The notes under the pieces were generated by a model. That model had not been told where the DNA came from, ran no database searches, and was given only the letters and a program-made list of their open reading frames with translations. This document shows positions 6,801-42,661 of a DNA stretch of 64,000 nucleotides, one piece after another; position 1 is the first letter of the stretch; each line of letters begins with the position of its first letter. This DNA comes from Mucilaginibacter sp. (GTDB lineage Bacteria; Bacteroidota; Bacteroidia; Sphingobacteriales; Sphingobacteriaceae), in contig NZ_JBCECK010000012.1 in assembly GCF_039207105.1 (NCBI RefSeq), forward strand, positions 2,632 through 66,631. Reading direction: 5' to 3'. The translations under genes were made by a program, and so were the position numbers.

Positions 6801-7219
6801 TCAACTACGGTACCGGTAATGGTTACATCGGCTTTTGTGGTAACAGGTTTAATATTGGCAATTTGCGCTACAATTATGGTTTTATCCTGTATGCTGTAGC
6901 TTAAATTTTGGGCGGTTAAAATGTTATCAAGTACCTCTTTAAGCGGTTTATCCTTTACATCAATATTTACCGGCGATAAGCGATCCAGCATATCGGCGTT
7001 ATAAATAAAATTATAATCGGTTTGCTTATGCATGATGTTAAAAACATCTTCAAAAGTGGCCGATTTGATATGGATGGTAACGTTTTGAGCACGGGTTATG
7101 GCCGATGCCTGAAACACGCTTATTATGAGTAATGCGAAAATGAATTTCATAATAATCAGAATTTTTAAAAAATACAGAGCGGGTGGCCTGTATTGAAATA
7201 CGGAGTTATCTGTGTACAT
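3827..7219 (-). CDS. susC: SusC/RagA TonB-dependent transporter with N-terminal STN signalling domain
   Basis: STN-like N-terminus, carboxypeptidase-like domain, VVIGYGTQKKKDLTGAVS, IESIDVLKDASSTAIYGSAGANGVILITTK, C-terminal F. Confidence 0.95.
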   Translation of the reverse strand: MYTDNSVFQYRPPALYFLKILIIMKFIFALLIISVFQASAITRAQNVTIHIKSATFEDVFNIMHKQTDYNFIYNADMLDRLSPVNIDVKDKPLKEVLDNILTAQNLSYSIQDKTIIVAQIANIKPVTTKADVTITGTVVDEKGITLPGVTVKLKGSNSAALTDARGNFKIILPKGNGILVFSFVGYKTQEIPVNNQTTISVKMELGVSGLDEIVVIGYGTQKKKDLTGAVSSVKGEDIAANPVSNPLEAMQGRVAGLDIQRTDGSTGAAPNVLLRGNRSIQIIQNGVVVGGATQNPLYVIDGIIGNITSLNPNDIESIDVLKDASSTAIYGSAGANGVILITTKKAKSGKVQIDLDSYYGVNGFASYPKALSGDAWVQYNRDKYFATNNKFPSSLADANVPASAIAAIEQNKWIDWVDETLKRGVQQNHHVAVRGGNETVQAYMSLGYIGEKGIYQGDNTAFYNVRGGVDVKFSDLFKAGLQTTINLRNNNQTNSRINKAFGTYPLGDVYDANGNINVYPLDKVSTVSPIANYAPGVLVNNTKGLFAAINPYIEFHPITNLSIRSQLGVTLASSRNGYFANELSYNLASEARNTKEASYTNNSGYGYLWENIANYNFTLNRDHNFSITGITSYNDQREETSFLAGQGLDFNDYLYYNMGALTTLTGKGTTYKQLNKLSFAGRVNYSYKGKYLVQLTNRWDGASQLVKKWAAFPSGQIGWRISDEDFMQSTKGWLDNLKLRAGYGVAGTANINAYVSSTEVTSRTSEFNMSLGSGAALPIYVIKQALGNPDLTWEKSYSTNLGLDMTMFKGRLDVTTEVFYTKTKGVLYPRNIPSSSGGYDAKNLYTITSNIGQTSNNGIEVTINSRNIISKNFRWNTSLTFTHATEKLDKIDLGNSLAPSALISNLLFVGQQLPQSIYYGYKKTGIWQLGEETEAAKYGAKPGDIKLQTVPKVVNGVSDNGVHPYSADDRMVVGHSTPNFSIGLQNSFVYKAFDLSIFATMRYGQTINAQLLGYYNAVAPPAFYNYWTPTHASNDFPQPYLGPTINTTYASALSLVDGSYIKIKNITLGYTLPKNIAGKIGMSRLRVYGTAYNTLIFAKSKLLKNVDPETGGSDSFPLYKQIVFGLNASF

Positions 7220-7222
7220 TTG
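7192..7222 (+). promoter_or_regulatory. Antisense Bacteroidota housekeeping-type promoter overlapping the susC start codon
   Basis: Perfect -7 TACATTTG (7215-7222) containing the CAT of the susC ATG; -33-like ATTG (7192-7195) 19 nt upstream. Confidence 0.55.
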
Positions 7223-7227
7223 AATGT

Positions 7228-7312
7228 TAAGTGAATGTGTAACAAAAATTTATCTTGACATTGCTTATTAGCAACCGGGAGAGGGTGTTGGTAGCACCTT
7301 TTCCCTTGTTTA
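7228..7312 (+). ncRNA. Candidate cis-antisense sRNA (DonS-like) in the fecR-susC spacer
   Basis: Bounded by the + strand promoter and a + strand terminator; ends are approximate. Confidence 0.45.
7277..7311 (+). terminator. Antisense-strand terminator hairpin
   Basis: GGGAGAGGGTG-TTGGTAG-CACCTTTTCCC pairs fully on + using two G-U wobbles, which are A-C mismatches on -; followed by TTGTTT. Confidence 0.6.
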
Positions 7313-7333
7313 AGTTTATAGAGTGGGGTAATG

Positions 7334-8485
7334 TTATTTCATGACAATCACGCTCCTTCCCTCAATTTTAAAGTGAACCGTATTGGTTAGCTCCAGTTTA
7401 CTAAGCACTTTTTGAATATCTGTAAAGCGCGATACTGTTCCGCCAAAACGCATCTGGCTTACGTCGTCCTGGTATACAATATCTACATCGTACCATCTTG
7501 ATATTTTTTTCATGATGGTGCTTAATGGTTCATTATCAAACCGGAACAGACCGGTTTTCCAGGCAATAGCATTATCGGTATCAACGTTGTGGAGTTGTAT
7601 ACCCTTTAACCTGAGTACTGCCTGCTGCCCCGGAACTATAGTTTTTGAAATGCCCGAACTTGTAGCAGTTACCTTTATACTTCCCTGTATCAGTGTGGTT
7701 TTAGTAACCAATTCATCGTCATAGGCGTTTACATTAAAGTGAGTTCCTAAAACTTCGATACGCTGGTTGTTGCTGATCACGATGAATGGCATCTGCCGGT
7801 TATGGCTCACCTCAAAGTACGCTTCACCGGCTAATTCCACCTTACGTTCAGTTCCGGTAAACGCTACCGGGTATTTTAGTCTCGATGCTGAGTTTAGCCA
7901 TACGCGGGTCCCATCGGGCAGATAAACCTGGTATATACCTCCGCGCGGTGTTTCCATCACATTAAATTCAATGTTGTTTTGCACGTGCGGTGTAGCCGCG
8001 CTTTTATATACCAATTGTCCATTGGTAGTTTTGGATACGTTTGTCCCGGCTTGCCGGGCCAGCGTGCCTGCCGATTGATCGTCGAGCGTTATTTTTTTAC
8101 CATTAGCCAGCGTTAACACTGCTTTGTTACTACCATAAACAATGGGCCTGGGCTTTGCGGCAACCGTGCCTGCCTTATCTTTTAAGGCAGGATTGTATAA
8201 TACTTTATAAGCGATGATGCTTAAGGAAAGCAGCATTACAACTGACGCGGCTATGCTGTAGACATTGAAAAAACTGGTTCTGGAAGAATCTTGTTGTAAC
8301 CTGTCTTGAATATCATGATAGGCTGCTTTCTGATCATCCTCTGTCAGGTCATGGGTATTATCGGCATGATCAAAAAGATCATAGTACTCATCCAGAAAAG
8401 CCTTCTCGGCAGTCGAGGCGTTTCCGCTTGCAACTTTAGCAGCAATTTCCTGCAACTGTTTAATGTCTGGCTTTTTAGGGCTCAT
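7334..8485 (-). CDS. fecR: FecR family anti-sigma factor
   Basis: TM helix (SIAASVVMLLSLSIIAY); TPRGG.Y.V.LPDGTRVWLNSAS.L.YP; VLGTHFNVNAY; AWKTGLFRF. Confidence 0.93.
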   Translation of the reverse strand: MSPKKPDIKQLQEIAAKVASGNASTAEKAFLDEYYDLFDHADNTHDLTEDDQKAAYHDIQDRLQQDSSRTSFFNVYSIAASVVMLLSLSIIAYKVLYNPALKDKAGTVAAKPRPIVYGSNKAVLTLANGKKITLDDQSAGTLARQAGTNVSKTTNGQLVYKSAATPHVQNNIEFNVMETPRGGIYQVYLPDGTRVWLNSASRLKYPVAFTGTERKVELAGEAYFEVSHNRQMPFIVISNNQRIEVLGTHFNVNAYDDELVTKTTLIQGSIKVTATSSGISKTIVPGQQAVLRLKGIQLHNVDTDNAIAWKTGLFRFDNEPLSTIMKKISRWYDVDIVYQDDVSQMRFGGTVSRFTDIQKVLSKLELTNTVHFKIEGRSVIVMK

Positions 8486-20713: not shown

Positions 20714-20733
20714 TGCCTTAATCGATTAAGGCA
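20714..20733. promoter_or_regulatory. LacI-type operator
   Basis: Perfect palindrome TGCCTTAATCGATTAAGGCA with central CG. Confidence 0.75.
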
Positions 20734-20797: not shown

Positions 20798-20815
20798 ACT
20801 TTAATCGATTAAAGT
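20798..20815. promoter_or_regulatory. LacI-type operator
   Basis: Perfect palindrome ACTTTAATCGATTAAAGT with the same TTAATCGATTAA core. Confidence 0.78.
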
Positions 20816-20880: not shown

Positions 20881-23800
20881 ATGAAGCAAATTTTAACAAT
20901 CATGTTGTTTTTTTTCTGTACCGGCTTATATGCCCAGCAGAAAACAGTAATCGGAACGGTTACTGACAAGGACCTGGGTAAGCCACTGGTAGGCGTTACC
21001 GTAAAAGCGGGTCAGGCTACGGTTATTACTGATGTTAATGGGAAATTCAGTGTAAACGCGGCTTTAAACTCCCAGATAACTTTTTCATACGTAGGTATGC
21101 AACCTTATACTTATGTAGTAAAAGATGTGCAGAACCCGGTTGTTATTGTAATGGAATATTTATCAGGAAACTTGAACGAAGTAGTAGTTACCGGGTACCA
21201 AAGCCAGAAGAAAGCCGACCTTACCGGCGCGGTATCTGTAGTAAAGATGACCGATATTAAGGATATTCCGCAAGGAAACGCTACAAAAGCCTTGCAGGGA
21301 AGGATTCCCGGTGTGTTCATTACCACTAATGGATCGCCGGAAGGTGGTGCCACCGTTCGTATACGGGGGATAGGCACGTTGAACAATAATGATCCGCTTT
21401 ATGTAATAGATGGTGTACCAACAACCCGCGGGCTCGAGGAGATCAATCAGGCCGATATTGAATCTATGCAGGTGTTAAAGGATGCGTCATCGGCTACCAT
21501 TTACGGATCACGGGCAGCAAACGGGGTAATTATTGTTACCACCAAAAAAGGGAAAAAAGGCATCAACCGTATTGATGTTAACGCCTCAACCTCATTACAA
21601 TACTACAATTCAAAATTATCCATGCTGAATACCCAGCAGCATGGTGAAGCCTACTTTAAAGCTTCGGTTAATGATGAAACTGATCCAAACAACAACCAGA
21701 TCTATCAGTTCGACTGGAATAAGGATTTTGCCAACCCTGTTTTAAACCAGGTGATATTACCTGAGTTTATTGATGGTGCTAAAACTATGAAACCTGCCAA
21801 TACCAATTGGTTTGATGAAATTGGCCAAACCTCGTTATTGCAGAATTATAATGTGGCCTTTAGCAACGGCGGCGAAAAAAACAACAGCTTTTTTTCGGTA
21901 AGCTATTATGATAACAAGGGCATTGTTAAAGAAACCCATACTAAAAAGGTTACGCTTAGGCTAAATTCAGATTACAGTTTTTTTAATGGCCGTTTAAAGG
22001 TTGGTGAAAACTTAAATACCAGTTTTATAAATGACAGGTTGATTGATGTTAACGGCGTTTTGTTTGGTGCCCTTGTTCAAAATCCCATTGTGCCGGTATA
22101 TACGGTTACCGGGGGATGGGGTGGCCCGGCAGCGGGCATGACCGACAGGCAAAACCCGGTACGCCTGATCCAGGATAATAAACAGAATCAAAGTTATTTC
22201 GGGAGAATAACCGGAAACGCTTATGCCGATCTTGCCATTATACAAGGCTTACATTTTAAAACAACCTTTGGGGTTGATTATGACGGTTTGTATGAAAGAA
22301 CCTTAAGAAAATCATATGTTTCCGGATTTTTGGTTGATCCCTCAAACCTTACTGCTAACTCGCAGAACTTTGATGGTAACCTTATCTGGCAAAACCAGTT
22401 GACCTATGATCTTGATCTCAAAAAAAGCAAGTTTAATTTCCTGGCCGGGCAGGAGTCTATCCATTACATGAACCAGAACTTTTTTGGTAGCAGGCAAGGC
22501 TATGCTGTAGAGGATATTAACTACGCTTACCTCGATGCCGGATCAACCAATATTCTGAATGGCGGTAATGGCGGCGCATATTCACTGCTTTCTTATTTCG
22601 GAAAGGCCAATTACACGTATGATAATAAATATATCGCATCGATAACCGTCAGGAGGGACGGCTCATCCCGCTTTGGGCAGGATAACCGGTATGGAACCTT
22701 CCCGTCGGCATCATTAGGCTGGCGTTTAAGCGAGGAGTCGTTCATCAAAAAACTCAACTTTATATCTGACCTGAAACTGCGTTATGGTTATGGCGAAACA
22801 GGTAATCAAACCGCAGGTAACTATGCCACTTATTCGCTGTATTCTGCCATTTACGGTACCGACCCTACATTTACCGCCGACCGGGGAACAGCCTATGATA
22901 TAACAGGAGCCGGGACAGGCACATTGCCATCAGGTTTTGTTAAGATACAGGAAGGCAATAATTCGTTAAAATGGGAGGGAACCAAAGAATCAAACTTCGG
23001 TATCGACTTTGGATTATTTGATCAAAAGATAACCGGTTCGGTTGATTATTTTGTTAAGAAAACATCTAACATATTGATTACCCCCGGCTACCTTGCTGTA
23101 ATTGGTGAAGGTGGCACCCGAACTTTTAATGGCGCCAGTATGCAGAATAAAGGTTTTGAGGCCCTGTTAAACTATGAAGGGCAGATCAGTAAAGACCTTA
23201 ACTTTTCGGTAAGCGCTAACATCGCCACTTTCCGTAACAAGGTTACCTTTTTGCCATCAGAGGTATTGACTGCCTATCCCGGTAACGGAAGCACTCAAAC
23301 CATTGTAGGGCATTCTATCAATTCAATTTTTGGTTACGTTGCCGATGGTTTGTTCACCAGCCAGCAGCAGGTTGATAATTCACCTGCGCAGCCGGGTAAA
23401 GGATTAGGCCGTATCAAGTATAAAGATCTTAACGGCGATAATAAGATTGATGATAATGACCGGACCTATATCTCGAACGGTAATCCGGACTTTACTTATG
23501 GTTTAAACTTTAACCTGTCATACAAAGATTTTGACATGTCGCTTTTCTTCCAGGGGGTGCACGGCATACAGGTATATAACACCTATAAAACCTATACGGA
23601 TTTCTCGTCCATCTGGCCGGGAACAAACTGGGGTACTCGTACGCTGAATGCATGGTCGCCAACCAATACATCGTCGAATATTCCGGCACTTACGCTGGTT
23701 GACAGGAATAATGAGAACAGGACATCTACCTATTATCTGGAGAACGGATCATATTTAAAGCTGCGCAACATCCAGATCGGGTATAACCTACGGAATGCGC

Positions 23801-35867: not shown

Positions 35868-37406
35868 TTAATAACCCGGGTTTTGTGTAAGCTTTGTGTT
35901 CAGGCCTACCTCGGCCTGGGGTAGCGGGTATAGCAATTTATCGTTGGTAACGATGTATGAATCTGGTGAAATATAGCTGATCTGGGTTTTCAGCTTAACG
36001 CCAAAAGCATTCATTACCGTAATTGCATTGCCGGTACGCACCAGATCATGCCAGCGTTTGTTTTCAAAAGCCAGTTCAATGCGGCGCTCATGCAAAATAG
36101 AATTGCGCAAGGTTGTTTGGTCGGCGCCGGTTACAGCAGGCAGACCGGCACGGGCACGAACAGTATTTAACGCGATCAATGGCGATTTGCCCTGCTCGTT
36201 CTGAGCTTCGGCCAATAATAACAGGGCCTCGGAGTAACGATAGATCGGGAAATCATCGGCAGAACCTGATATGTAAGCCGGTGTATGCTCATATTTTTTA
36301 ACATAGGGCACAGCAGTTTTGCCGCTTGGCGGTCCGCTGTAGTTTACCACGCTTTTTGCAGCCGAATAAGTAAAATAGTTACTGCCATCGTATACTCCTT
36401 CGGCAATACCGATGGATGCATCAAGGCGCTTATCACCGGTTTCGTAACTACTGATCAAATCCTGGGTGGGGGTATTCCAACCACCAGTGGTGGTATTATC
36501 AATAGCCAGGGAAGTAATTAACGATGTGTTTTTACTGCGCGGCAGGAAATGAAAACACAATGAATCTGGCGTAGAGCCGGTGGCTGTTCCATCTAAAAAC
36601 TGCACCTCGAACAACGACTCTTTGCTGTTTTTATTGGCAGGTAAAAAGGTATCGGCATAATTGGCATTTAAACTGTATCCCATAGCCGCTAAGGTGTTTA
36701 ATTGTGTCTCAGCATCAGCCCAGCGTTTTAACGTTACGTAAACATCTGCCAGCAATACGGTAGCCGAACCTTTGGTAGCTACACCCGTTTGCGGAAACTT
36801 TGTTGGCACCGGCAGTTCGTTTATGGCATCTGTAGCATCAGCAATGATCTGTTTATATACATCATTTACAGACGAGCGTGGCAAAAAGGCATCCTCCGGC
36901 GTGGTCACTTCTTTAACAAACAGGGGGACACCACCAAACAACCGCACCAGTTTAAAATACATCAGCGCACGCAAAAATTTACATTGCCCATCATAGCTTT
37001 TCACCGAAGCATCGGGAATACCAGATGCGGTTTTCAGCCTTGTGATCACAATATTGGCACGTGAAATTACCAGATAAGTTTTTTGCCATTCGGCGGCTGT
37101 ATAGCTATCGGTTGAGGCATCCATAAAATCAGAAAGCTTTTCGCGATCTGTATATGCTGTACCCCTGTTATTTAAAAATGATTGATATATGGTGTTATCT
37201 GAGCGCATTTCAGAAAACAGGTAGTCCGTTGTAACTACATAGCGCAAAGCTGAATAAGCAGCCGTAACCGCCTGCCCAAACTGGGCATCGGTTTGGTAAT
37301 AGTTTTGATCGCTGTATGATGATTTGGGCGCTAAGTCAATAAAGCTTTTTTTGCATGAGGCTGCTGTCAATAATACCAGCCCCATCAAAATATATATTTT
37401 TTTCAT
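35868..37406 (-). CDS. susD: RagB/SusD family lipoprotein
   Basis: AASCKK lipobox; GQCKFLRALMYF; YRYSEALLLLAEA; ERRIELAFE..RWHDLVR; QNPGY end. Confidence 0.94.
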   Translation of the reverse strand: MKKIYILMGLVLLTAASCKKSFIDLAPKSSYSDQNYYQTDAQFGQAVTAAYSALRYVVTTDYLFSEMRSDNTIYQSFLNNRGTAYTDREKLSDFMDASTDSYTAAEWQKTYLVISRANIVITRLKTASGIPDASVKSYDGQCKFLRALMYFKLVRLFGGVPLFVKEVTTPEDAFLPRSSVNDVYKQIIADATDAINELPVPTKFPQTGVATKGSATVLLADVYVTLKRWADAETQLNTLAAMGYSLNANYADTFLPANKNSKESLFEVQFLDGTATGSTPDSLCFHFLPRSKNTSLITSLAIDNTTTGGWNTPTQDLISSYETGDKRLDASIGIAEGVYDGSNYFTYSAAKSVVNYSGPPSGKTAVPYVKKYEHTPAYISGSADDFPIYRYSEALLLLAEAQNEQGKSPLIALNTVRARAGLPAVTGADQTTLRNSILHERRIELAFENKRWHDLVRTGNAITVMNAFGVKLKTQISYISPDSYIVTNDKLLYPLPQAEVGLNTKLTQNPGY

Positions 37407-37433: not shown

Positions 37434-40400
37434 TTATTTTATAGAGGCTGAAATACCTAATGAGAAAGTCCTTGGGATTGGATAGGCGTTTTCATCAATA
37501 CCGATACCTTGCGTTGGGTCTTGTCCGGTGAGGTTAATTTCCGGATTCATGCCTGAATAACCTGTAAATACAAATGCCTGTTGTACTGAGGCAAAAACGC
37601 GAAGCGATTTAAAAGCGATATTATTTTTAAACGGTATACTATAACCCAGCGAAATATTTTTGATGGCGAAGTATGAGCCGTTCTCTATCCATTGTGTGTT
37701 TACTTCACGGCCTATTGCTGTGGTACCTGTTTTAGTACGCGGGTAAATGCCCGAGCCCGGATCTTCAGGAGAACGCCAGTGGTCAAGCGCTGCCACCAGC
37801 GGCACACGTGAACCGTCCATATTGGTTTGATAAGCCCATTTTGCAGCATTCAGGATTTTCCCTCCTACAGAAAATGAGGTATGTATATTCAGGTCGAACC
37901 GCTTGTAGGTAAAGTTGTTGGTAAAACCACCTGTAAAAGTAGGGGTAGGGTCGCCGATAAATGTACGGTCGTTCACATCATCAATCACACCGTCGCCATT
38001 AAGGTCTTTAACTTTGATGGTTCCTACATCTGATGAGCCATTAGGCGAGGTAGCTGTTGCAAGGTACTTTGGTGAGTTGGCCAGATCGGCCGCGTCTTTA
38101 TACAAGCCTTCAAAAACAAAGCCGTAAAACTCACCCAAATGATGGCCAACCTGCTGGCGGAAATAATCGGATGTTACGGTATTATTTCTGCGGATGTAAC
38201 CAGGTGATACCAAACTCTTGATAATGTTACGATCAAATGAAATATTGAAAGCGCTGTTCCATTTAAAATCGCGGTTATTGATGTTAACAGTGTTGATGGT
38301 AATTTCATGACCCCAGAACGCCAGCTTACCAACGTTATCATAAACTGTTGTATAGCCCGATGAGGTTGGCAATGGCCTTGCCTGTATCAGGTGGTCAGAA
38401 ATTTTGTGATAATAATCATACGTCAAACTGATACGGTTTTTCAATAAGCTTACGTCAAAGCCCAAATCAAGTTGCAAACTGCGCTCCCATTGTAAATTGG
38501 CATTACCCAAATTGCTGATCGTAGTACCCTGTGTAATGGTATTATTATAATCGTAATAGTAATTTGAGGTAGTAGATTGCGCTACATAATTACTCGAAAA
38601 GAAGTTGTTACCTGTTACACCGTAGCTGGCACGAATTTTAAACAGATCTACGTTTTTAAAACGCTCCATAAATTTCTCGTCGCTTACTACCCAGCCTGCT
38701 GATACTGAAGGGAAATTACCGTATTTGGAATTTGCGCCAAAACGCGAAGATCCATCGTTACGGAATGCACCCTGCAATAGATATTTGCCTTGATAATCAT
38801 AGTTAATACGCCCGATGACAGATAACAATGAATAATCTGTATAGCTACTATTTCCGGTTACGCTTGTAGCCGCGGTTAAATATGGGATATCGTCATTAGG
38901 GAAGCCTAAGCCGGTTAGCGTATTAGCAGTTGAAGAATATTTTTGAACAGAATAGCCGCCTAATACCTGCAGGTGATGATCCTGATGAAATGTTTTCGTG
39001 TAGTTCAGGTATCCCTCGGCTGTATATGAACCATTATCTACCGAACTACTGGTACCGGTTGGGTTATTAGCTGTAGAAGTTACGATACCTGATTGATAAT
39101 AGTTACGTGTTTCGCCGCCTTTATCAACACCTACGTTTACCTTTAACATTAAGCCATTTAAAACCTCGTAATTCAAATAGCCATTTCCCAGTATGCGCGT
39201 GGTTTTATAATCATCATTGGTTAATTTAAACTGGGCCAGCGGATTAACATAGGCAACCATACCCGGCGAGTTTACTACACGGTTATAAGAACCATCGGCA
39301 TTGAAAGGGGAAATCAGGGGACTGGCTTCAAAAATACGCTCGAATAAGCCGCCCACACCATCGGTTGTTAAACGGTTATTATGGTCTAAACGGTAACTCG
39401 GCGCCAGGTTGAAACCGATTTTTAGCTTGCCATTAGCTACAGATACATCTTTATTGATTCGTGCGGAAAATAAGCGCGTGCCGGTGTTGATTAAAACACC
39501 CTGCTGGTCTGAGTAGCTTACAATAGCTGTTGAAGATGATTTTTCTGTTGCCGACTGAATAGTTACATCGTAGTTCTGGATAGGTGCGGTACGTGTAAGC
39601 AACTTATACCAGTTGGTACCGGTACCATAACTTGAGGGATCTACATCAAGGTAAGCGGCCTTGTAGTCATTAGCTATGTTATAATTTTTTTCATATAATA
39701 AACCATCCTGCGCGCGTTCTCTCATAAACTCGGCAAATTGCTCGGCGTTCATCACTTTTGGCACCTTGTTGCCAGGGATAGATTGTACACCGTAGTTAGC
39801 ATTAAATTCTACCGAAGTACCTGTACCCGGTTTAGCGTGGCGGGTTGTTATCAATATTACACCGTTTGATGCTCTTGAACCGTATAGGGCCGTGGCTGAA
39901 GCATCTTTTAGAATACTAAAGCTCTCAATTTCATCGGGGTTAATATTGTTGATGCTTCCGGTTATGGGCATTCCGTCAATTACAAACAGAGGTTGGTTAT
40001 CAGTAAAAAATGACGCGGCACCCCTGATACGGAAATCTATACCCCTGCCCGGCTGGCCGCTGCTTTGTACCACTGATACACCGGCCACTTTTCCTTCCAG
40101 TTGCTGTGCAAACTGTATTACCGGCATATCTTTTAAAGGAGCCGCGCTTAACTCAGTTATTGAACCTGTAATATCACGGGCACGTTGTTTACCATAACTT
40201 ACGGTAACCTCTTTAAGCAAGTTACCGCCTGTTAGGCTCACGTTAAGCGTAGCCGTTTTATTAGCTGCAACTTTTACATCCTTAGTTTCGTTTTTGGAGT
40301 AACCAACAAAAGTTACCTCAATGGTATAGGTGCCTTCGGGTACGGTAAGCGTGTAGTTGCCATCATTATTGGTCATTACGCCGGTACCTGTACCGGCAAT

Positions 40401-40826
40401 TTTTACCGATGCACCTGGTAAGGGCGCACCTGTTTCGTCGGTAATGCGGCCGGCAATTTTGCCTGAGCCTTGTTTAAATAACAGGATGTTTCCGGCTTCT
40501 TCTTTAAAACCGATGCCAGAGTATCTTAAAACGTTGGTGAGTACTGTTTCAAGAGGGGCATTGGTAAAGCTGGCGGGTTTTACATAAATATTTTTTAACC
40601 CGAGGTAGGCTTCATCGTAGGCAAATATCAGGTTAGATTTGCTTTCGATATTTTTAATTACTGTCGACAAATTTTCGTTGCCAACTGACACATTGATGCG
40701 GCTGTTAAGGCCCTGAGCCTTAACATTTGCTGCCTGCACATACAGCAGCCCAACGGTGAGCAGGATACTAAATGCTAAAATAGTAGTTCGCATAAATTGC
40801 TTCCATAACAGTGTATAGAAATTCAT
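37434..40826 (-). CDS. susC: SusC/RagA TonB-dependent transporter with STN domain
   Basis: STN-like N-terminus; IESFSILKDASATALYGSRASNGVILITT; WERSLQ; start uncertain (ATG 40826 preferred; track uses TTG 40901). Confidence 0.94.
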   Translation of the reverse strand: MNFYTLLWKQFMRTTILAFSILLTVGLLYVQAANVKAQGLNSRINVSVGNENLSTVIKNIESKSNLIFAYDEAYLGLKNIYVKPASFTNAPLETVLTNVLRYSGIGFKEEAGNILLFKQGSGKIAGRITDETGAPLPGASVKIAGTGTGVMTNNDGNYTLTVPEGTYTIEVTFVGYSKNETKDVKVAANKTATLNVSLTGGNLLKEVTVSYGKQRARDITGSITELSAAPLKDMPVIQFAQQLEGKVAGVSVVQSSGQPGRGIDFRIRGAASFFTDNQPLFVIDGMPITGSINNINPDEIESFSILKDASATALYGSRASNGVILITTRHAKPGTGTSVEFNANYGVQSIPGNKVPKVMNAEQFAEFMRERAQDGLLYEKNYNIANDYKAAYLDVDPSSYGTGTNWYKLLTRTAPIQNYDVTIQSATEKSSSTAIVSYSDQQGVLINTGTRLFSARINKDVSVANGKLKIGFNLAPSYRLDHNNRLTTDGVGGLFERIFEASPLISPFNADGSYNRVVNSPGMVAYVNPLAQFKLTNDDYKTTRILGNGYLNYEVLNGLMLKVNVGVDKGGETRNYYQSGIVTSTANNPTGTSSSVDNGSYTAEGYLNYTKTFHQDHHLQVLGGYSVQKYSSTANTLTGLGFPNDDIPYLTAATSVTGNSSYTDYSLLSVIGRINYDYQGKYLLQGAFRNDGSSRFGANSKYGNFPSVSAGWVVSDEKFMERFKNVDLFKIRASYGVTGNNFFSSNYVAQSTTSNYYYDYNNTITQGTTISNLGNANLQWERSLQLDLGFDVSLLKNRISLTYDYYHKISDHLIQARPLPTSSGYTTVYDNVGKLAFWGHEITINTVNINNRDFKWNSAFNISFDRNIIKSLVSPGYIRRNNTVTSDYFRQQVGHHLGEFYGFVFEGLYKDAADLANSPKYLATATSPNGSSDVGTIKVKDLNGDGVIDDVNDRTFIGDPTPTFTGGFTNNFTYKRFDLNIHTSFSVGGKILNAAKWAYQTNMDGSRVPLVAALDHWRSPEDPGSGIYPRTKTGTTAIGREVNTQWIENGSYFAIKNISLGYSIPFKNNIAFKSLRVFASVQQAFVFTGYSGMNPEINLTGQDPTQGIGIDENAYPIPRTFSLGISASIK

Positions 40827-40838
40827 ATTTTTGATTGC

Positions 40839-40948
40839 TTTTGTAAGTGTGAAATATTTGCTGGGCATTGCAAACCTGGATTCCCGTCCGTTGGTTTGCA
40901 AAAATTATTACACGGCGCTGTATTGACGTACAGGGCCGTTTGTTTTTT
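40839..40948 (+). ncRNA. Candidate cis-antisense sRNA (DonS-like) at the second fecR-susC junction
   Basis: -7 TATTTTTG (40826-33) overlapping the susC ATG, or AATATTTG (40853-60) with TTTG 19 nt upstream; internal hairpin 40868-40901; terminator 40912-40948. Confidence 0.42.
40912..40948 (+). terminator. Antisense-strand intrinsic terminator
   Basis: ACGGCGCTGTA-TTGACG-TACAGGGCCGT followed by TTGTTTTTT on +, opposite to fecR-susC. Confidence 0.68.
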
Positions 40949-40956
40949 CCGGAGGT

Positions 40957-41898
40957 TTAGTAGAGAGTTACTTCCTTGCCCTCCTTTCTGAAATGCGTGT
41001 TGTGAATCTGGCTAATCACTTTCAGTATCTGGTCTGCCGGTAAGTTGTGTTGAATACGAAGACTAAAGAGGTAACTGTGTACATGCTCATTTCCCGGCTT
41101 AAGCGATAAACCAAATATGTTATTGATTACCACTGCCAACTCCTGAAAATTAGCTTGCGATAGCGTAGTGTACCCTGTTTTCCAGCTTTGGGCATCGTTA
41201 GCATTGACACTTTGCTGGTGATATAGTCCTGTAACGGTGACGTAACTCAATTGCTGGCCGGGAAGTAACATGGCCAGGCATTTACCGCTTTTAACCACGC
41301 CTACCTTACCGGTAGCCACCGAAACCTGTATGTTATTTAATTTTTGATAGGAACGTATATTAAAAGAGGTTCCCAACACCTGTACATTTAATTTACCGGT
41401 ATGAACCACAAATGGATGTTGCGCATCTCTTTTTACTTCAAAAAAAGCTTCACCCTCAATCAGTTTGATTTCGCGCAGATGGCCTTTAAACTCAACAGGT
41501 ATCTGAATGGTACTGGCGGCATTAAGCCATACCACCGAACTATCAGGCAGGTTAATTTGCTTAAGCCCGTTGGTTGAGGTATGGATGGTAGTATAAACCG
41601 GTTGCTTTTTAGCCAGGCTAAGGGTTCGTAAATGGTAAAACATAAGCGATAAGCCGACAAAGACCAACAGGCTTGCCGCAATACGAAACATGGGCAATCG
41701 GAAAACAGAAGGCTTAGCCAAACCAGGTTTCACTTTGGCGTATATCATATTCCTGACGCGCTGCTTTTCAGCTTGGCTCAGATCCTGCTCCTTATCATTA
41801 TAGGAGTTGTACCAGGCTTCAATTAAGGCGTTCTCAGTTTCGTTAGCTTTACCTTTTGAGTATGCGGTTAGTTTTTTTCTTAATTTATCAATATCCAT
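40957..41898 (-). CDS. fecR: FecR family anti-sigma factor
   Basis: RIAASLLVFVGL TM; INLPDSSVVWLNAASTI; GEAFFEV; VLGTSFNI. Confidence 0.92.
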   Translation of the reverse strand: MDIDKLRKKLTAYSKGKANETENALIEAWYNSYNDKEQDLSQAEKQRVRNMIYAKVKPGLAKPSVFRLPMFRIAASLLVFVGLSLMFYHLRTLSLAKKQPVYTTIHTSTNGLKQINLPDSSVVWLNAASTIQIPVEFKGHLREIKLIEGEAFFEVKRDAQHPFVVHTGKLNVQVLGTSFNIRSYQKLNNIQVSVATGKVGVVKSGKCLAMLLPGQQLSYVTVTGLYHQQSVNANDAQSWKTGYTTLSQANFQELAVVINNIFGLSLKPGNEHVHSYLFSLRIQHNLPADQILKVISQIHNTHFRKEGKEVTLY

Positions 41899-41970: not shown

Positions 41971-42564
41971 TTATTTGTGAAGTAGTGGTAGCAGTAAAGC
42001 CAGATAGGTGAGGTGCTTTTCGGGATATTTTTCGACAATAACGATGCGTAAACGGCGCGTAGCCTCTGCAATATAATTTTTAACGGTTTGATCAGCCAGA
42101 CCCAATTCGCCGGCAATGGCTTTTACGGAAAGATTATCGCAGCGCAGCCTGTAAACTTTTTTTAGCATTTCGGGCATGCCGTTTTCCGCCTCTTCCAATG
42201 TTTTTTCCAGTTCAATGTAATCGGCAATGGCATCTATTGAATCTTCGAGCAGATTGATACGCTCCAGGGCATCCTGCATCCGAAGGTCGCTGGCCTGTTG
42301 TGAACGGAAATGACTGATCACACTAAAACGCACAGCACCGTGTAAATAATTTTCGATCGATGTATTAATGCTGAGCTTTTCGCGGCGTTGCCAGACTTTT
42401 ATAAATATTTCCTGAACAATATCCTGTGCAATTCCATCATCACCTAATCGGGCGAATGCAGCTTTGTAGAGTTTCTCCCAATAACGGTCGAACAAAACGT
42501 CGAAAGCAGCATGATCATTTGCTTTAATTTGTTGAAGTAAGGCTAAATCAGATGAATGCTCCAT
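41971..42564 (-). CDS. ECF sigma-70 factor, FecI-like
   Basis: AFDVLFDRYWEKLY; DIVQEIFIKVW; LADQTVKNYI; upstream of fecR; own -7 TAATTTTG at 42573-42580. Confidence 0.92.
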   Translation of the reverse strand: MEHSSDLALLQQIKANDHAAFDVLFDRYWEKLYKAAFARLGDDGIAQDIVQEIFIKVWQRREKLSINTSIENYLHGAVRFSVISHFRSQQASDLRMQDALERINLLEDSIDAIADYIELEKTLEEAENGMPEMLKKVYRLRCDNLSVKAIAGELGLADQTVKNYIAEATRRLRIVIVEKYPEKHLTYLALLLPLLHK

Positions 42565-42610
42565 TGACTAAGCAAAATTAAACATCCAATGTTAAGGCAA
42601 CTTTAATTCT

Positions 42611-42661
42611 AACGCGTCTCAAACTTGATGTTCAATTGTAACATCAAGTTTGAGACGCGTT
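42611..42661. terminator. 22-bp perfect hairpin after the decarboxylase gene
   Basis: AACGCGTCTCAAACTTGATGTT-caattgt-AACATCAAGTTTGAGACGCGTT; no U-tract. Confidence 0.55.

What the first reader, a model, noticed from the sequence alone, without database searches (positions are those of the whole stretch)
40826..40948. Same antisense promoter-terminator architecture at the second fecR-susC junction
Seen: with different primary sequence, a -7 TATTTTTG again overlaps the likely susC ATG (alternative AATATTTG with TTTG 19 nt upstream). A 9-bp internal hairpin (40868-40901) follows, then a hairpin with a TTG-starting loop and TTGTTTTTT on +. I saw no equivalent hairpin plus U-tract before the LacI-controlled susC. 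Inference: independent recurrence points to a conserved element tied to ECF/FecR PULs, and the TTG loop may be a protein or RNA recognition site.
Basis: partly seen in the sequence, partly recalled or inferred. Interest (0 to 1): 0.65.

Follow-up and report, generated by a model that had tools for sequence, protein, structure and literature searches.

The report
DonS-like antisense RNA gene facing susC
The 130-base gap between an anti-sigma gene (fecR) and a sugar-uptake gene (susC) in this Mucilaginibacter genome very probably holds a gene for a ~105-base RNA read from the opposite strand. It is built like the DonS antisense RNAs that restrain glycan-utilisation loci in gut Bacteroides, and it is one of about 20 such units in this genome.

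Summary
On the + strand there is a TATTTTTG -7 box (40826-40833) whose first T pairs with the A of the susC ATG. A 9-bp hairpin follows (40868-40901), then a GC-rich hairpin (40912-40939) running into TTGTTTTTT.

It is not chance:
- The box sits at the susC ATG in 20 of 28 FecR-linked susC genes, in 0 of 32 other susC genes and in 0.6% of all genes.
- 20 of 24 long fecR-susC spacers carry an antisense-facing hairpin plus T-tract.
- Non-Watson-Crick positions in the stems are G·U on the antisense strand 25 times and on the sense strand once.
- In 18 distinct Mucilaginibacter orthologues the box is invariant and all three hairpins covary.
- The same layout occurs in Pedobacter, Parapedobacter, Larkinella, Cyclobacteriaceae and Tannerellaceae.

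Best reading: a DonS-like, PUL-associated cis-antisense sRNA gene, made from a housekeeping-sigma promoter, about 105 nt long, with an intrinsic terminator. It is a new member of a kind known from Bacteroides. This scan has already flagged the same design in other genomes.

The suggested TTG-loop recognition site is not supported. No transcript data could be obtained, so expression and the repressive mechanism remain inferred.

The parts
40790..40825 (+). Conserved block upstream of the -7 box. It is the upstream part of the antisense promoter. On the other strand it is the first 12 codons of the annotated susC ORF, up to a second in-frame ATG at 40793-40791.
   Evidence: This is the most conserved stretch of the locus. 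Taken as 40790-40838, nucleotide identity to orthologues is 88-100% for seven of the eight compared (73% for the most distant, L009), against 55-89% for the fecR 3' end, the RNA body and the next 150 nt of susC. No canonical -33 TTTG lies at 17-21 nt. The -33 motif was also not found in Flavobacterium johnsoniae (PMC7366714).
40826..40833 (+). -7 box TATTTTTG (TAnnTTTG) of the Bacteroidota housekeeping sigma factor. It is interlocked with the susC ATG (40826-40824 on the minus strand).
   Evidence: Read. It is invariant in 10 aligned orthologues and in 11 further genus hits. The same box sits at -7 or -3 of the ATG in 19/27 (20/28) FecR-linked susC genes, against 0-1/33 others and 0.6% of all genes. 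Variation falls only on the two 'n' positions.
40839..40948 (+). Predicted antisense small RNA, about 105-110 nt. The 5' end is predicted about 5 nt after the box and has not been mapped.
   Evidence: The covariance model built from orthologues matches exactly 40839-40947 (101 bits). Predicted lengths at 17 junctions of this genome are 74-114 nt. There is no conserved ORF: the 22-codon TTG frame is broken by indels in orthologues.
40843..40861 (+). 5' hairpin of the RNA (GUAAGUGU / AUAUUUGC), rich in G·U pairs.
   Evidence: MFE folds of all orthologues. In helix 1, 91-92% of cells are paired and 2 pairs have double changes. Its G·U pairs would be C·A mismatches on the sense strand.
40868..40901 (+). 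It carries an apical GGA/UCC stem.
   Evidence: In helix 2, 4-6 of 9 pairs change on both sides (GCAAACC/GGUUUGC, GCAGG/CCUGC, GCAAAU/AUUUGC).
40912..40948 (+). Intrinsic terminator of the antisense RNA: hairpin 40912-40939 plus U-tract TTGTTTTTT. It ends 9 nt before the fecR stop codon.
   Evidence: In helix 4, 6-7 of 10 pairs change on both sides. The window's G/G mismatch is a U·G wobble on this strand in L001, L002 and L004-L006, which is a C·A mismatch on the sense strand.
40957..41898 (-). fecR (anti-sigma factor), upstream neighbour.
   Evidence: Pfam FecR and FecR_C.
37434..40826 (-). susC-like TonB-dependent transporter, the presumed target.
   Evidence: Pfam CarboxypepD_reg, Plug and TonB_dep_Rec.
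41971..42564 (-). ECF sigma factor gene of the cassette.
   Evidence: Pfam Sigma70_r2/r4_2/ECF. A housekeeping-type TTG-N17-TAATTTTG lies 8 nt before its ATG.

Best explanation
The fecR-susC spacer encodes a DonS-like, PUL-associated cis-antisense small RNA.

Anatomy:
- RNA polymerase with the housekeeping sigma factor starts at the + strand promoter, whose -7 box TATTTTTG is interlocked with the susC start codon.
- It transcribes away from susC, across the whole spacer.
- It stops at a hairpin plus U-tract 9 nt short of the fecR stop codon.
- The product is a roughly 105-nt RNA with a 5' hairpin, a long central hairpin, an A/U-rich linker and a terminator.

Inferred function (not shown): the RNA, or the act of making it, holds down susC and the downstream PUL genes while leaving sigma and fecR expression untouched.
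- One route is perfect pairing with the spacer/leader part of sense transcripts, whether fecR read-through or ECF-dependent. The duplex would reach to about 13 nt before the AUG, inside the ribosome landing zone of these Shine-Dalgarno-poor mRNAs, and would be a substrate for double-strand-specific RNases.
- The other route is head-on transcriptional interference or promoter occlusion.

Either way the unit sets a threshold on the self-amplifying sigma/anti-sigma/SusC signalling loop. Each ECF-type PUL carries its own private copy.
For: Shown by sequence analysis:
1. The exact layout is present.
2. The box is position-specific and specific to FecR-linked susC. It is at 19/27 of them, against 1/33 other susC (Fisher p = 2e-8) and 24/4135 of all genes (p = 4e-34). 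The one exception turned out to be FecR-linked. Sense-strand TAnnTTTG is almost absent from the junctions.
3. An antisense-facing hairpin plus T-tract is in 20/24 long junctions, against 141/400 other co-directional spacers and 13/35 other susC leaders. Sense-facing ones are in only 6/24.
4. Strand of the RNA: in stems chosen by a strand-neutral rule, 25 interior non-Watson-Crick positions are G·U on the antisense strand and 1 on the sense strand (p = 8e-7). In orthologues the count is 31 against 9.
5. Covariation: on an unfitted MAFFT alignment, 89% of cells are paired and 13/28 pairs have double changes, reached by 0/500 shuffles; slid controls give 32-48%. With 18 distinct orthologues it is 90% and 16/28.
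6. The promoter block is the best-conserved stretch of the locus.
7. Predicted lengths are 74-114 nt at 17 junctions. Mapped B. thetaiotaomicron PUL-associated antisense RNAs are 81-140 nt, use the canonical promoter, have terminators, and for some the 'TSS overlaps start codon' (PMC7366714 supplement).
8. The design is also present in Tannerellaceae, Pedobacter, Parapedobacter, Larkinella and Cyclobacteriaceae.

From the literature:
- DonS-family RNAs are 78-128 nt, divergently encoded to susC homologues, and negatively affect their expression.
- Insertions in anti-sigma genes are polar on downstream sus genes, so read-through transcripts exist in Bacteroides (PMC2709373).
Against: - There is no transcript evidence.
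- There is no canonical -33 TTTG at the usual distance.
- The promoter block overlaps the annotated first 12 codons of susC. Part of its conservation could be protein-coding or a sense-strand signal.
- The ECF-dependent sense promoter could not be located, so it is unknown whether the induced susC mRNA overlaps the RNA at all.
- The mechanism of DonS itself is unknown (PMC11697453).
- The junctions of one genome are paralogues and the orthologues are kin, so the counts overstate independence.
- 4-8 FecR-linked junctions lack the box, and short-spacer junctions in other families lack the unit entirely.
Confidence: 0.75

Rival explanations
1. The unit is real, but it acts mainly at the DNA level. 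The housekeeping-sigma promoter interlocked with the susC start, and the ECF-dependent susC promoter or read-through polymerase, exclude each other by promoter occlusion or collision. On this view the RNA is largely a by-product.
For: - The box sits in only two exact registers relative to the ATG (CAAAnnTATG or CAAATGTA) across several families.
- The most conserved part is the promoter, not the RNA body.
- Paralogous RNA bodies have diverged beyond detection while box and terminator persist.
- The DonS mechanism is unknown.
Against: - The RNA's three hairpins are kept by compensatory changes, and its 5' part is well conserved. That is not expected of a by-product.
- A dedicated terminator gives a discrete small RNA.
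- The sense promoter was not located, so the overlap is conjecture.
Confidence: 0.15
2. The features belong to the sense strand. The hairpins would be leader or processing structures of the fecR-susC mRNA, or a terminator for fecR. CAAAnnTA would be a sense signal, such as a translation-start context or an ECF promoter or start-site element.
For: - At this locus the hairpin is also followed on the sense strand by a moderately U-rich GUGUAAUAAUUUUUG, so it could work in both directions.
- The box overlaps the start codon. TCAAA precedes nnTA in about half of the loci, which resembles some ECF -10 elements (my recollection, untested).
- A TTAACC motif lies 10-18 nt upstream in 8-9 paralogues.
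Against: - G·U against C·A asymmetry is 25:1 and 31:9 in favour of the antisense strand.
- On the sense strand the hairpins are preceded by A-tracts (mean about 5 of 8) and mostly not followed by T-tracts (about 2 of 8).
- The six invariant positions and the two free positions of the motif are exactly those of TAnnTTTG.
- Other susC genes lack the motif (0/32), although they need the same translation start context.
Confidence: 0.06
3. Chance: AT-rich leaders throw up TAnnTTTG and hairpin/T-runs often enough, or the hairpins are a repetitive extragenic palindrome unrelated to the PUL.
For: - TAnnTTTG is not enriched in the window overall (66 against about 76 expected).
- A loose box-plus-terminator rule finds 919 sites genome-wide.
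- About 35% of ordinary spacers contain a weak antisense 'terminator'.
Against: - The enrichments are position-specific.
- The box is invariant and the stems covary in 18 distinct orthologues.
- The GGRGTG..CACYCC hairpin motif occurs 8 times in the genome, 6 of them in these junctions and none in other intergenic DNA.
Confidence: 0.02

Closest known systems
DonS of Bacteroides fragilis and the DonS family of PUL-associated cis-antisense sRNAs (Cao et al. 2016, J Bacteriol 198:2410, as described in PMC7366714 and PMC11697453)
   Same: - It lies between the anti-sigma gene and the susC homologue of an ECF-sigma-controlled PUL.
- It is encoded divergently to susC.
- The size class matches: 78-128 nt reported, about 105 nt predicted here.
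- There are many private copies per genome, one per PUL.
   Different: - The host is a soil Sphingobacteriia (Mucilaginibacter), not a gut Bacteroidales.
- The PUL is a GH92/metallophosphatase locus of unknown substrate.
- No expression or repression data exist here.
- Sequence relatedness to DonS could not be tested: the paper is not held and no DonS sequence was available.
- There is no Rfam family.
B. thetaiotaomicron PUL-associated antisense RNAs BTnc009, BTnc055, BTnc077, BTnc123, BTnc249, BTnc252 (Ryan et al. 2020, PMC7366714)
   Same: - They use the canonical housekeeping promoter (PM1).
- They are 81-140 nt long.
- They have predicted Rho-independent terminators.
- For BTnc055 and BTnc252 the start site overlaps the susC start codon. 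This is the interlock seen here.
   Different: - Those were mapped by dRNA-seq and Northern blot; this one is predicted only.
- Here the -7 box, not the start site, overlaps the ATG. The predicted start therefore lies about 13 nt upstream of the AUG in sense coordinates.
FopS family of trans-acting sRNAs of B. thetaiotaomicron (PMC11697453)
   Same: They are small RNAs that repress SusC-type glycan transporters.
   Different: - FopS RNAs are paralogous, sequence-related and act in trans by imperfect pairing with the chaperone RbpB.
- The units here are cis-encoded, mutually unrelated in sequence and perfectly complementary to their own locus.

Membership tests
DonS-like PUL-associated cis-antisense sRNA | Located in the spacer between the anti-sigma gene and the susC homologue of an ECF-sigma-type PUL | tested here: met
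   Pfam shows ECF sigma, FecR, SusC (Plug/TonB), SusD and GH92 in one minus-strand cluster. The unit occupies the 130-nt fecR-susC spacer.
DonS-like PUL-associated cis-antisense sRNA | Own housekeeping-sigma promoter (TAnnTTTG -7 box) on the strand opposite to susC, at or near the susC start | tested here: met
   TATTTTTG at 40826-40833 (+). It is invariant in all 21 orthologous loci examined (18 distinct sequences) and specific to FecR-linked susC genes. The -33 element was not found.
DonS-like PUL-associated cis-antisense sRNA | Discrete small transcript of roughly 80-140 nt ending at an intrinsic terminator | tested here: met
   By prediction only. The hairpin at 40912-39 plus U-tract gives about 105-110 nt. 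Other junctions give 74-114 nt. The terminator stem covaries and carries antisense-only G·U pairs.
DonS-like PUL-associated cis-antisense sRNA | The antisense RNA is actually transcribed | not testable with these tools
DonS-like PUL-associated cis-antisense sRNA | Represses the cognate susC/PUL | not testable with these tools
   This needs genetics. It is inferred only from B. fragilis DonS and from anti-correlated expression in B. thetaiotaomicron.
DonS-like PUL-associated cis-antisense sRNA | Sequence or structure homology to DonS or the BTnc RNAs | not tested
   No reference sequences were available. Even paralogues within this genome are not detected by the locus-specific covariance model. 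The family is therefore defined by layout, not by sequence.
Any Rfam family | Match at gathering score | tested here: not met
   There were 0 matches in the window at gathering threshold. Only two chance-level hits (E 5.6 and 8.6) appeared in 40600-41100.

The most novel reading that the evidence does not exclude
The interlock of a housekeeping-sigma -7 box with the susC start codon is kept in only two exact registers (CAAAnnTATG or CAAATGTA) across Sphingobacteriia, Cytophagia and Bacteroidia. This may mark a phylum-wide DNA-level toggle. On that reading the housekeeping polymerase sitting on the antisense promoter, and ECF-sigma-driven or read-through polymerase, exclude each other at the same few dozen base pairs. 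The small RNA would be a secondary, locus-private reinforcement. It would be a mechanistic answer to the still unknown mode of action of DonS-type RNAs.
Probability: 0.15. Interest if true: 0.7.

Novelty: new member of a known kind. Interest (0 to 1): 0.45.

Why it matters
DonS-type antisense RNAs have been shown experimentally only in two gut Bacteroides species, and their mechanism is unknown.

This analysis adds four things:
- The same unit is a standard fitting of ECF/anti-sigma/SusC cassettes in a soil Sphingobacteriia, with about 20 copies.
- It is conserved with covariation across the genus.
- It recurs in other classes of the phylum whenever the fecR-susC spacer is long.
- No Rfam model or routine genome annotation captures these genes.

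It also gives a sharp, testable anatomical rule: the -7 box is fused to the susC ATG, and the terminator abuts the fecR stop. That rule could be used to annotate these RNAs phylum-wide and to design experiments that separate RNA pairing from transcriptional interference. This scan has already reached the same reading at other genomes, so the single locus adds breadth rather than a new principle.

Tried and rejected
- Cao et al. 2016 (PMC4999932) is not held, so DonS details come from papers that cite it.
A model of this locus's orthologues (R1) finds only itself in the genome. I answered the question with feature statistics instead.
- First attempt at iterative HMM building timed out. It was replaced by plain phmmer.
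- The first energy comparison of the two strands was biased, because I picked each hairpin by its antisense energy. It was replaced by a strand-neutral stem finder.
- TTG-loop enrichment test: negative.
- Alternative promoter TTTG-N19-AATATTTG: rejected as not conserved.
- Search for the ECF-dependent sense promoter by spaced dyads and k-mers: inconclusive. It gave only a TTAACC motif 10-18 nt upstream of the box in 8-9 paralogues and GAAC-N14-16-TTAA in 3-5.
- Small ORF on the + strand (22 codons from a TTG): rejected because the frame is broken by indels in orthologues.
- Repetitive palindromic element: rejected.

Full report
**Context.** The window is part of contig C12 of a 6.0-Mb, 41% G+C draft genome. 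Orthologous loci identify it as a Mucilaginibacter (Sphingobacteriaceae). Around the finding all genes are on the minus strand: ECF sigma (41971-42564), FecR anti-sigma (40957-41898), SusC-like transporter (37434-40826), SusD (35868-37406), a metallophosphatase and a GH92. A second sigma/FecR/SusC/SusD cassette lies at 9289-1937. A LacI-linked susC lies at 20881 (+).

**Observation.**
- TATTTTTG lies at 40826-40833 (+). It shares T40826 with the susC ATG.
- The alternative AATATTTG lies at 40853-40860, with TTTG 19 nt upstream.
- The 9-bp hairpin spans 40868-40901.
- A hairpin at 40912-40939 has loop TTGACG and is followed by TTGTTTTTT.
- As RNA the + strand folds better than the sense strand: -43.3 kcal/mol (z -3.7) against -28.6 (z -2.1).
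- The LacI-type susC leader has neither box nor antisense U-tract. It carries two LacI-type palindromes.

**Is it more than chance?** One TAnnTTTG means little by itself: there are 66 in the window against about 76 expected. I therefore laid out the whole genome, called ORFs, and found 32 FecR genes and 79 SusC/TonB-receptor genes with phmmer. These include 27 fecR-to-susC junctions.
- On the sense strand most long junctions show an A-tract followed by a GC-rich hairpin soon after the fecR stop, and CAAAnnTA at the susC ATG.
- An antisense-facing hairpin plus T-tract is present in 20/24 long junctions. The figure is 141/400 for other co-directional spacers and 13/35 for other susC leaders. Sense-facing ones are present in only 6/24.
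- CAAAnnTA lies within -10..+1 of the ATG in 19/27 FecR-linked susC genes, 1/33 others and 24/4135 of all genes (p = 2e-8 and 4e-34).
- The single exception, at the start of contig C85, has a FecR C-terminal fragment directly upstream (E = 2e-22). The true contrast is therefore 20/28 against 0/32.
- The motif varies only at its two free positions (TG, AA, TA, CT, TT, AG). It occupies two registers, CAAAnnTATG or CAAATGTA.
- Sense-strand -7 boxes are almost absent from the junctions.

**Which strand is the RNA?** A first comparison of fold energies was biased by how I picked the hairpins. I repeated it with a strand-neutral stem finder.
- Of the interior non-Watson-Crick positions in the best stems, 25 are G·U on the antisense strand (C·A on the sense strand), 1 is the reverse and 12 are neither (binomial p = 8e-7).
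- The stems are preceded on the sense strand by A-rich octamers and are mostly not followed by T-rich ones.

**This locus across species.** Ten Mucilaginibacter orthologues, with FecR 41-85% identical, were aligned.
- The -7 box is invariant.
- The 49-nt promoter block 40790-40838 is 88-100% identical in seven of eight comparisons and 73% in the most distant one. The fecR 3' end, the RNA body and the next 150 nt of susC are 55-89%.
- The alternative box AATATTTG is not conserved.
- Each orthologue's predicted transcript folds into the same four parts: 5' hairpin, long central hairpin, A/U linker and terminator.
- On the unfitted MAFFT alignment, my 28-pair structure is 89% paired, with 13 pairs changed on both sides. 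None of 500 shuffles reached this. Slid controls give 32-48%.
- G·U cells number 31 on the antisense reading against 9 on the sense reading.
- A covariance model of these sequences finds one copy in 12 of 61 Mucilaginibacter genomes. Every strong hit lies between fecR and susC orthologues, antisense to both, with TATTTTTG just upstream.
- With 18 distinct sequences the structure is 90% paired, with 16/28 pairs covarying. That alignment is fitted to the model.

**Paralogues and breadth.**
- The model detects no other junction in the same genome. The roughly 20 units are therefore private to their PULs in sequence and share only the layout.
- Box-to-terminator distances predict RNAs of 74-114 nt at 17 junctions.
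- Among more distant FecR loci, spacers fall into two classes. Short spacers of 10-30 nt (mainly Prolixibacteraceae, Sunxiuqinia, Odoribacter) carry nothing.
- Long spacers carry the box at -7 or -3 of the ATG plus an antisense terminator in 9 of 18 cases. These are in Pedobacter, Parapedobacter, Larkinella, Cyclobacteriaceae, Litoribacter, Tannerellaceae and one MAG.

**Comparison with what is known.**
- Ryan et al. [quoted passage not shown]
- Their supplement lists mapped B. thetaiotaomicron examples of 81-140 nt. These use the canonical promoter PM1 and have predicted terminators, and two are annotated 'TSS overlaps start codon'.
- The housekeeping -7 consensus TAnnTTTG is established for the phylum. 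The -33 motif was not recoverable in Flavobacterium johnsoniae, so its absence here is not disqualifying.
- The mechanism of DonS is stated to be unknown.
- Martens et al. 2009 show that ECF-sigma genes are primed from housekeeping promoters, and that insertions in anti-sigma genes are polar on the downstream sus genes. In agreement, the sigma gene here has TTG-N17-TAATTTTG 8 nt before its ATG.
- Rfam has no matching family.
- Other entries of this scan reach the same reading for other genomes. I treated them as leads only.

**Mechanism.**
- Shown: a conserved, strand-specific, promoter-to-terminator unit on the + strand, specific to FecR-linked susC genes.
- Inferred: it is transcribed into a ~105-nt RNA complementary to the whole spacer up to about 13 nt before the susC AUG.
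- Inferred: the RNA, by pairing with read-through or ECF-driven transcripts, and/or its transcription, by collision or occlusion, lowers susC/PUL expression without touching sigma and fecR. This would set a threshold on the positive-feedback signalling loop.
- I could not locate the ECF-dependent sense promoter. The choice between pairing and interference stays open.

**The TTG loop.** It is not conserved among orthologues and not enriched relative to ordinary terminators. A subset of terminator stems does share GGRGTG..CACYCC. That motif is confined to these junctions and probably reflects paralogy.

**Verdict.** This is a new, so far unexpressed-in-evidence, member of the DonS-like antisense RNA kind. 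Its value is mainly in showing how regular and how widespread the design is.

Noticed in passing
window 7192-7334 (+ strand); genome contigs C1, C16, C17, C20, C21, C25, C52, C57, C7, C9 and others: The first fecR-susC junction of the window has the same unit: TACATTTG at 7215-7222 built on the ATG, and a hairpin plus U-rich tail. About 17-20 junctions genome-wide have it too, with predicted RNAs of 74-114 nt.
   Followed up: yes
own genome, susC paralogues on C1, C12 (window 7219), C17, C21, C25 (two), C57: Many FecR-linked SusC ORFs begin MYK... and have a second in-frame Met exactly 69 nt downstream, followed by a classical signal peptide (IMKLT...). GC-rich hairpins lie between the two ATGs. 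The first ATG lies inside the -7 box (CAAATGTA) and may not be the real start codon. At this locus a second ATG lies 33 nt downstream (40793).
   Followed up: partly
own genome, 10-18 nt upstream (sense) of the box in 8-9 junctions: There is a TTAACC(C/T)AAAC motif, in some loci with GAAC 14-16 nt further upstream. It is either an ECF-dependent promoter element or the conserved 5' end (GGUUAA) of the antisense RNAs. It is absent from the locus of this finding.
   Followed up: partly
window 20715-20732 and 20799-20814 (+): Two LacI-family operator-like palindromes (GCCTTAATCGATTAAGGC and CTTTAATCGATTAAAG) lie between the LacI gene and its susC. This is consistent with repressor control instead of an antisense unit.
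   Followed up: no
window about 42611-42661: A long, near-perfect inverted repeat of about 22-bp arms (AACGCGTCTCAAACTTGATGTT / AACATCAAGTTTGAGACGCGTT) lies between the upstream 480-aa gene and the ECF sigma gene. No clear U-tract follows it. Its function is unknown.
   Followed up: no
window 42573-42580 (- strand): A housekeeping-type promoter, TTG-N17-TAATTTTG, lies only 8 nt before the ECF sigma ATG. This implies a very short leader, and it matches the 'primed by housekeeping transcription' model for Bacteroides ECF-type PULs.
   Followed up: partly
loci L015-L080 (Prolixibacteraceae, Sunxiuqinia, Odoribacter and others): FecR-SusC spacers across Bacteroidota are bimodal. Short spacers of about 10-30 nt have no room for an antisense unit. 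Spacers of more than 85 nt carry one in about half of the cases.
   Followed up: partly
L023, L028, L078, L079 and own contigs C20, C7, C106: Terminator hairpins of these units in distant taxa share a sequence theme: GGRRATGTTGGNRGCATYYCC or GGAGTG..CACTCC. In this genome that motif occurs almost only in fecR-susC junctions.
   Followed up: partly
L093 (G059:C28:75032-75154): The covariance model gives a weak second hit (E = 4e-5) in one Mucilaginibacter genome. It has no FecR/SusC homologue of this locus nearby. It may be a diverged paralogue or a false positive.
   Followed up: no
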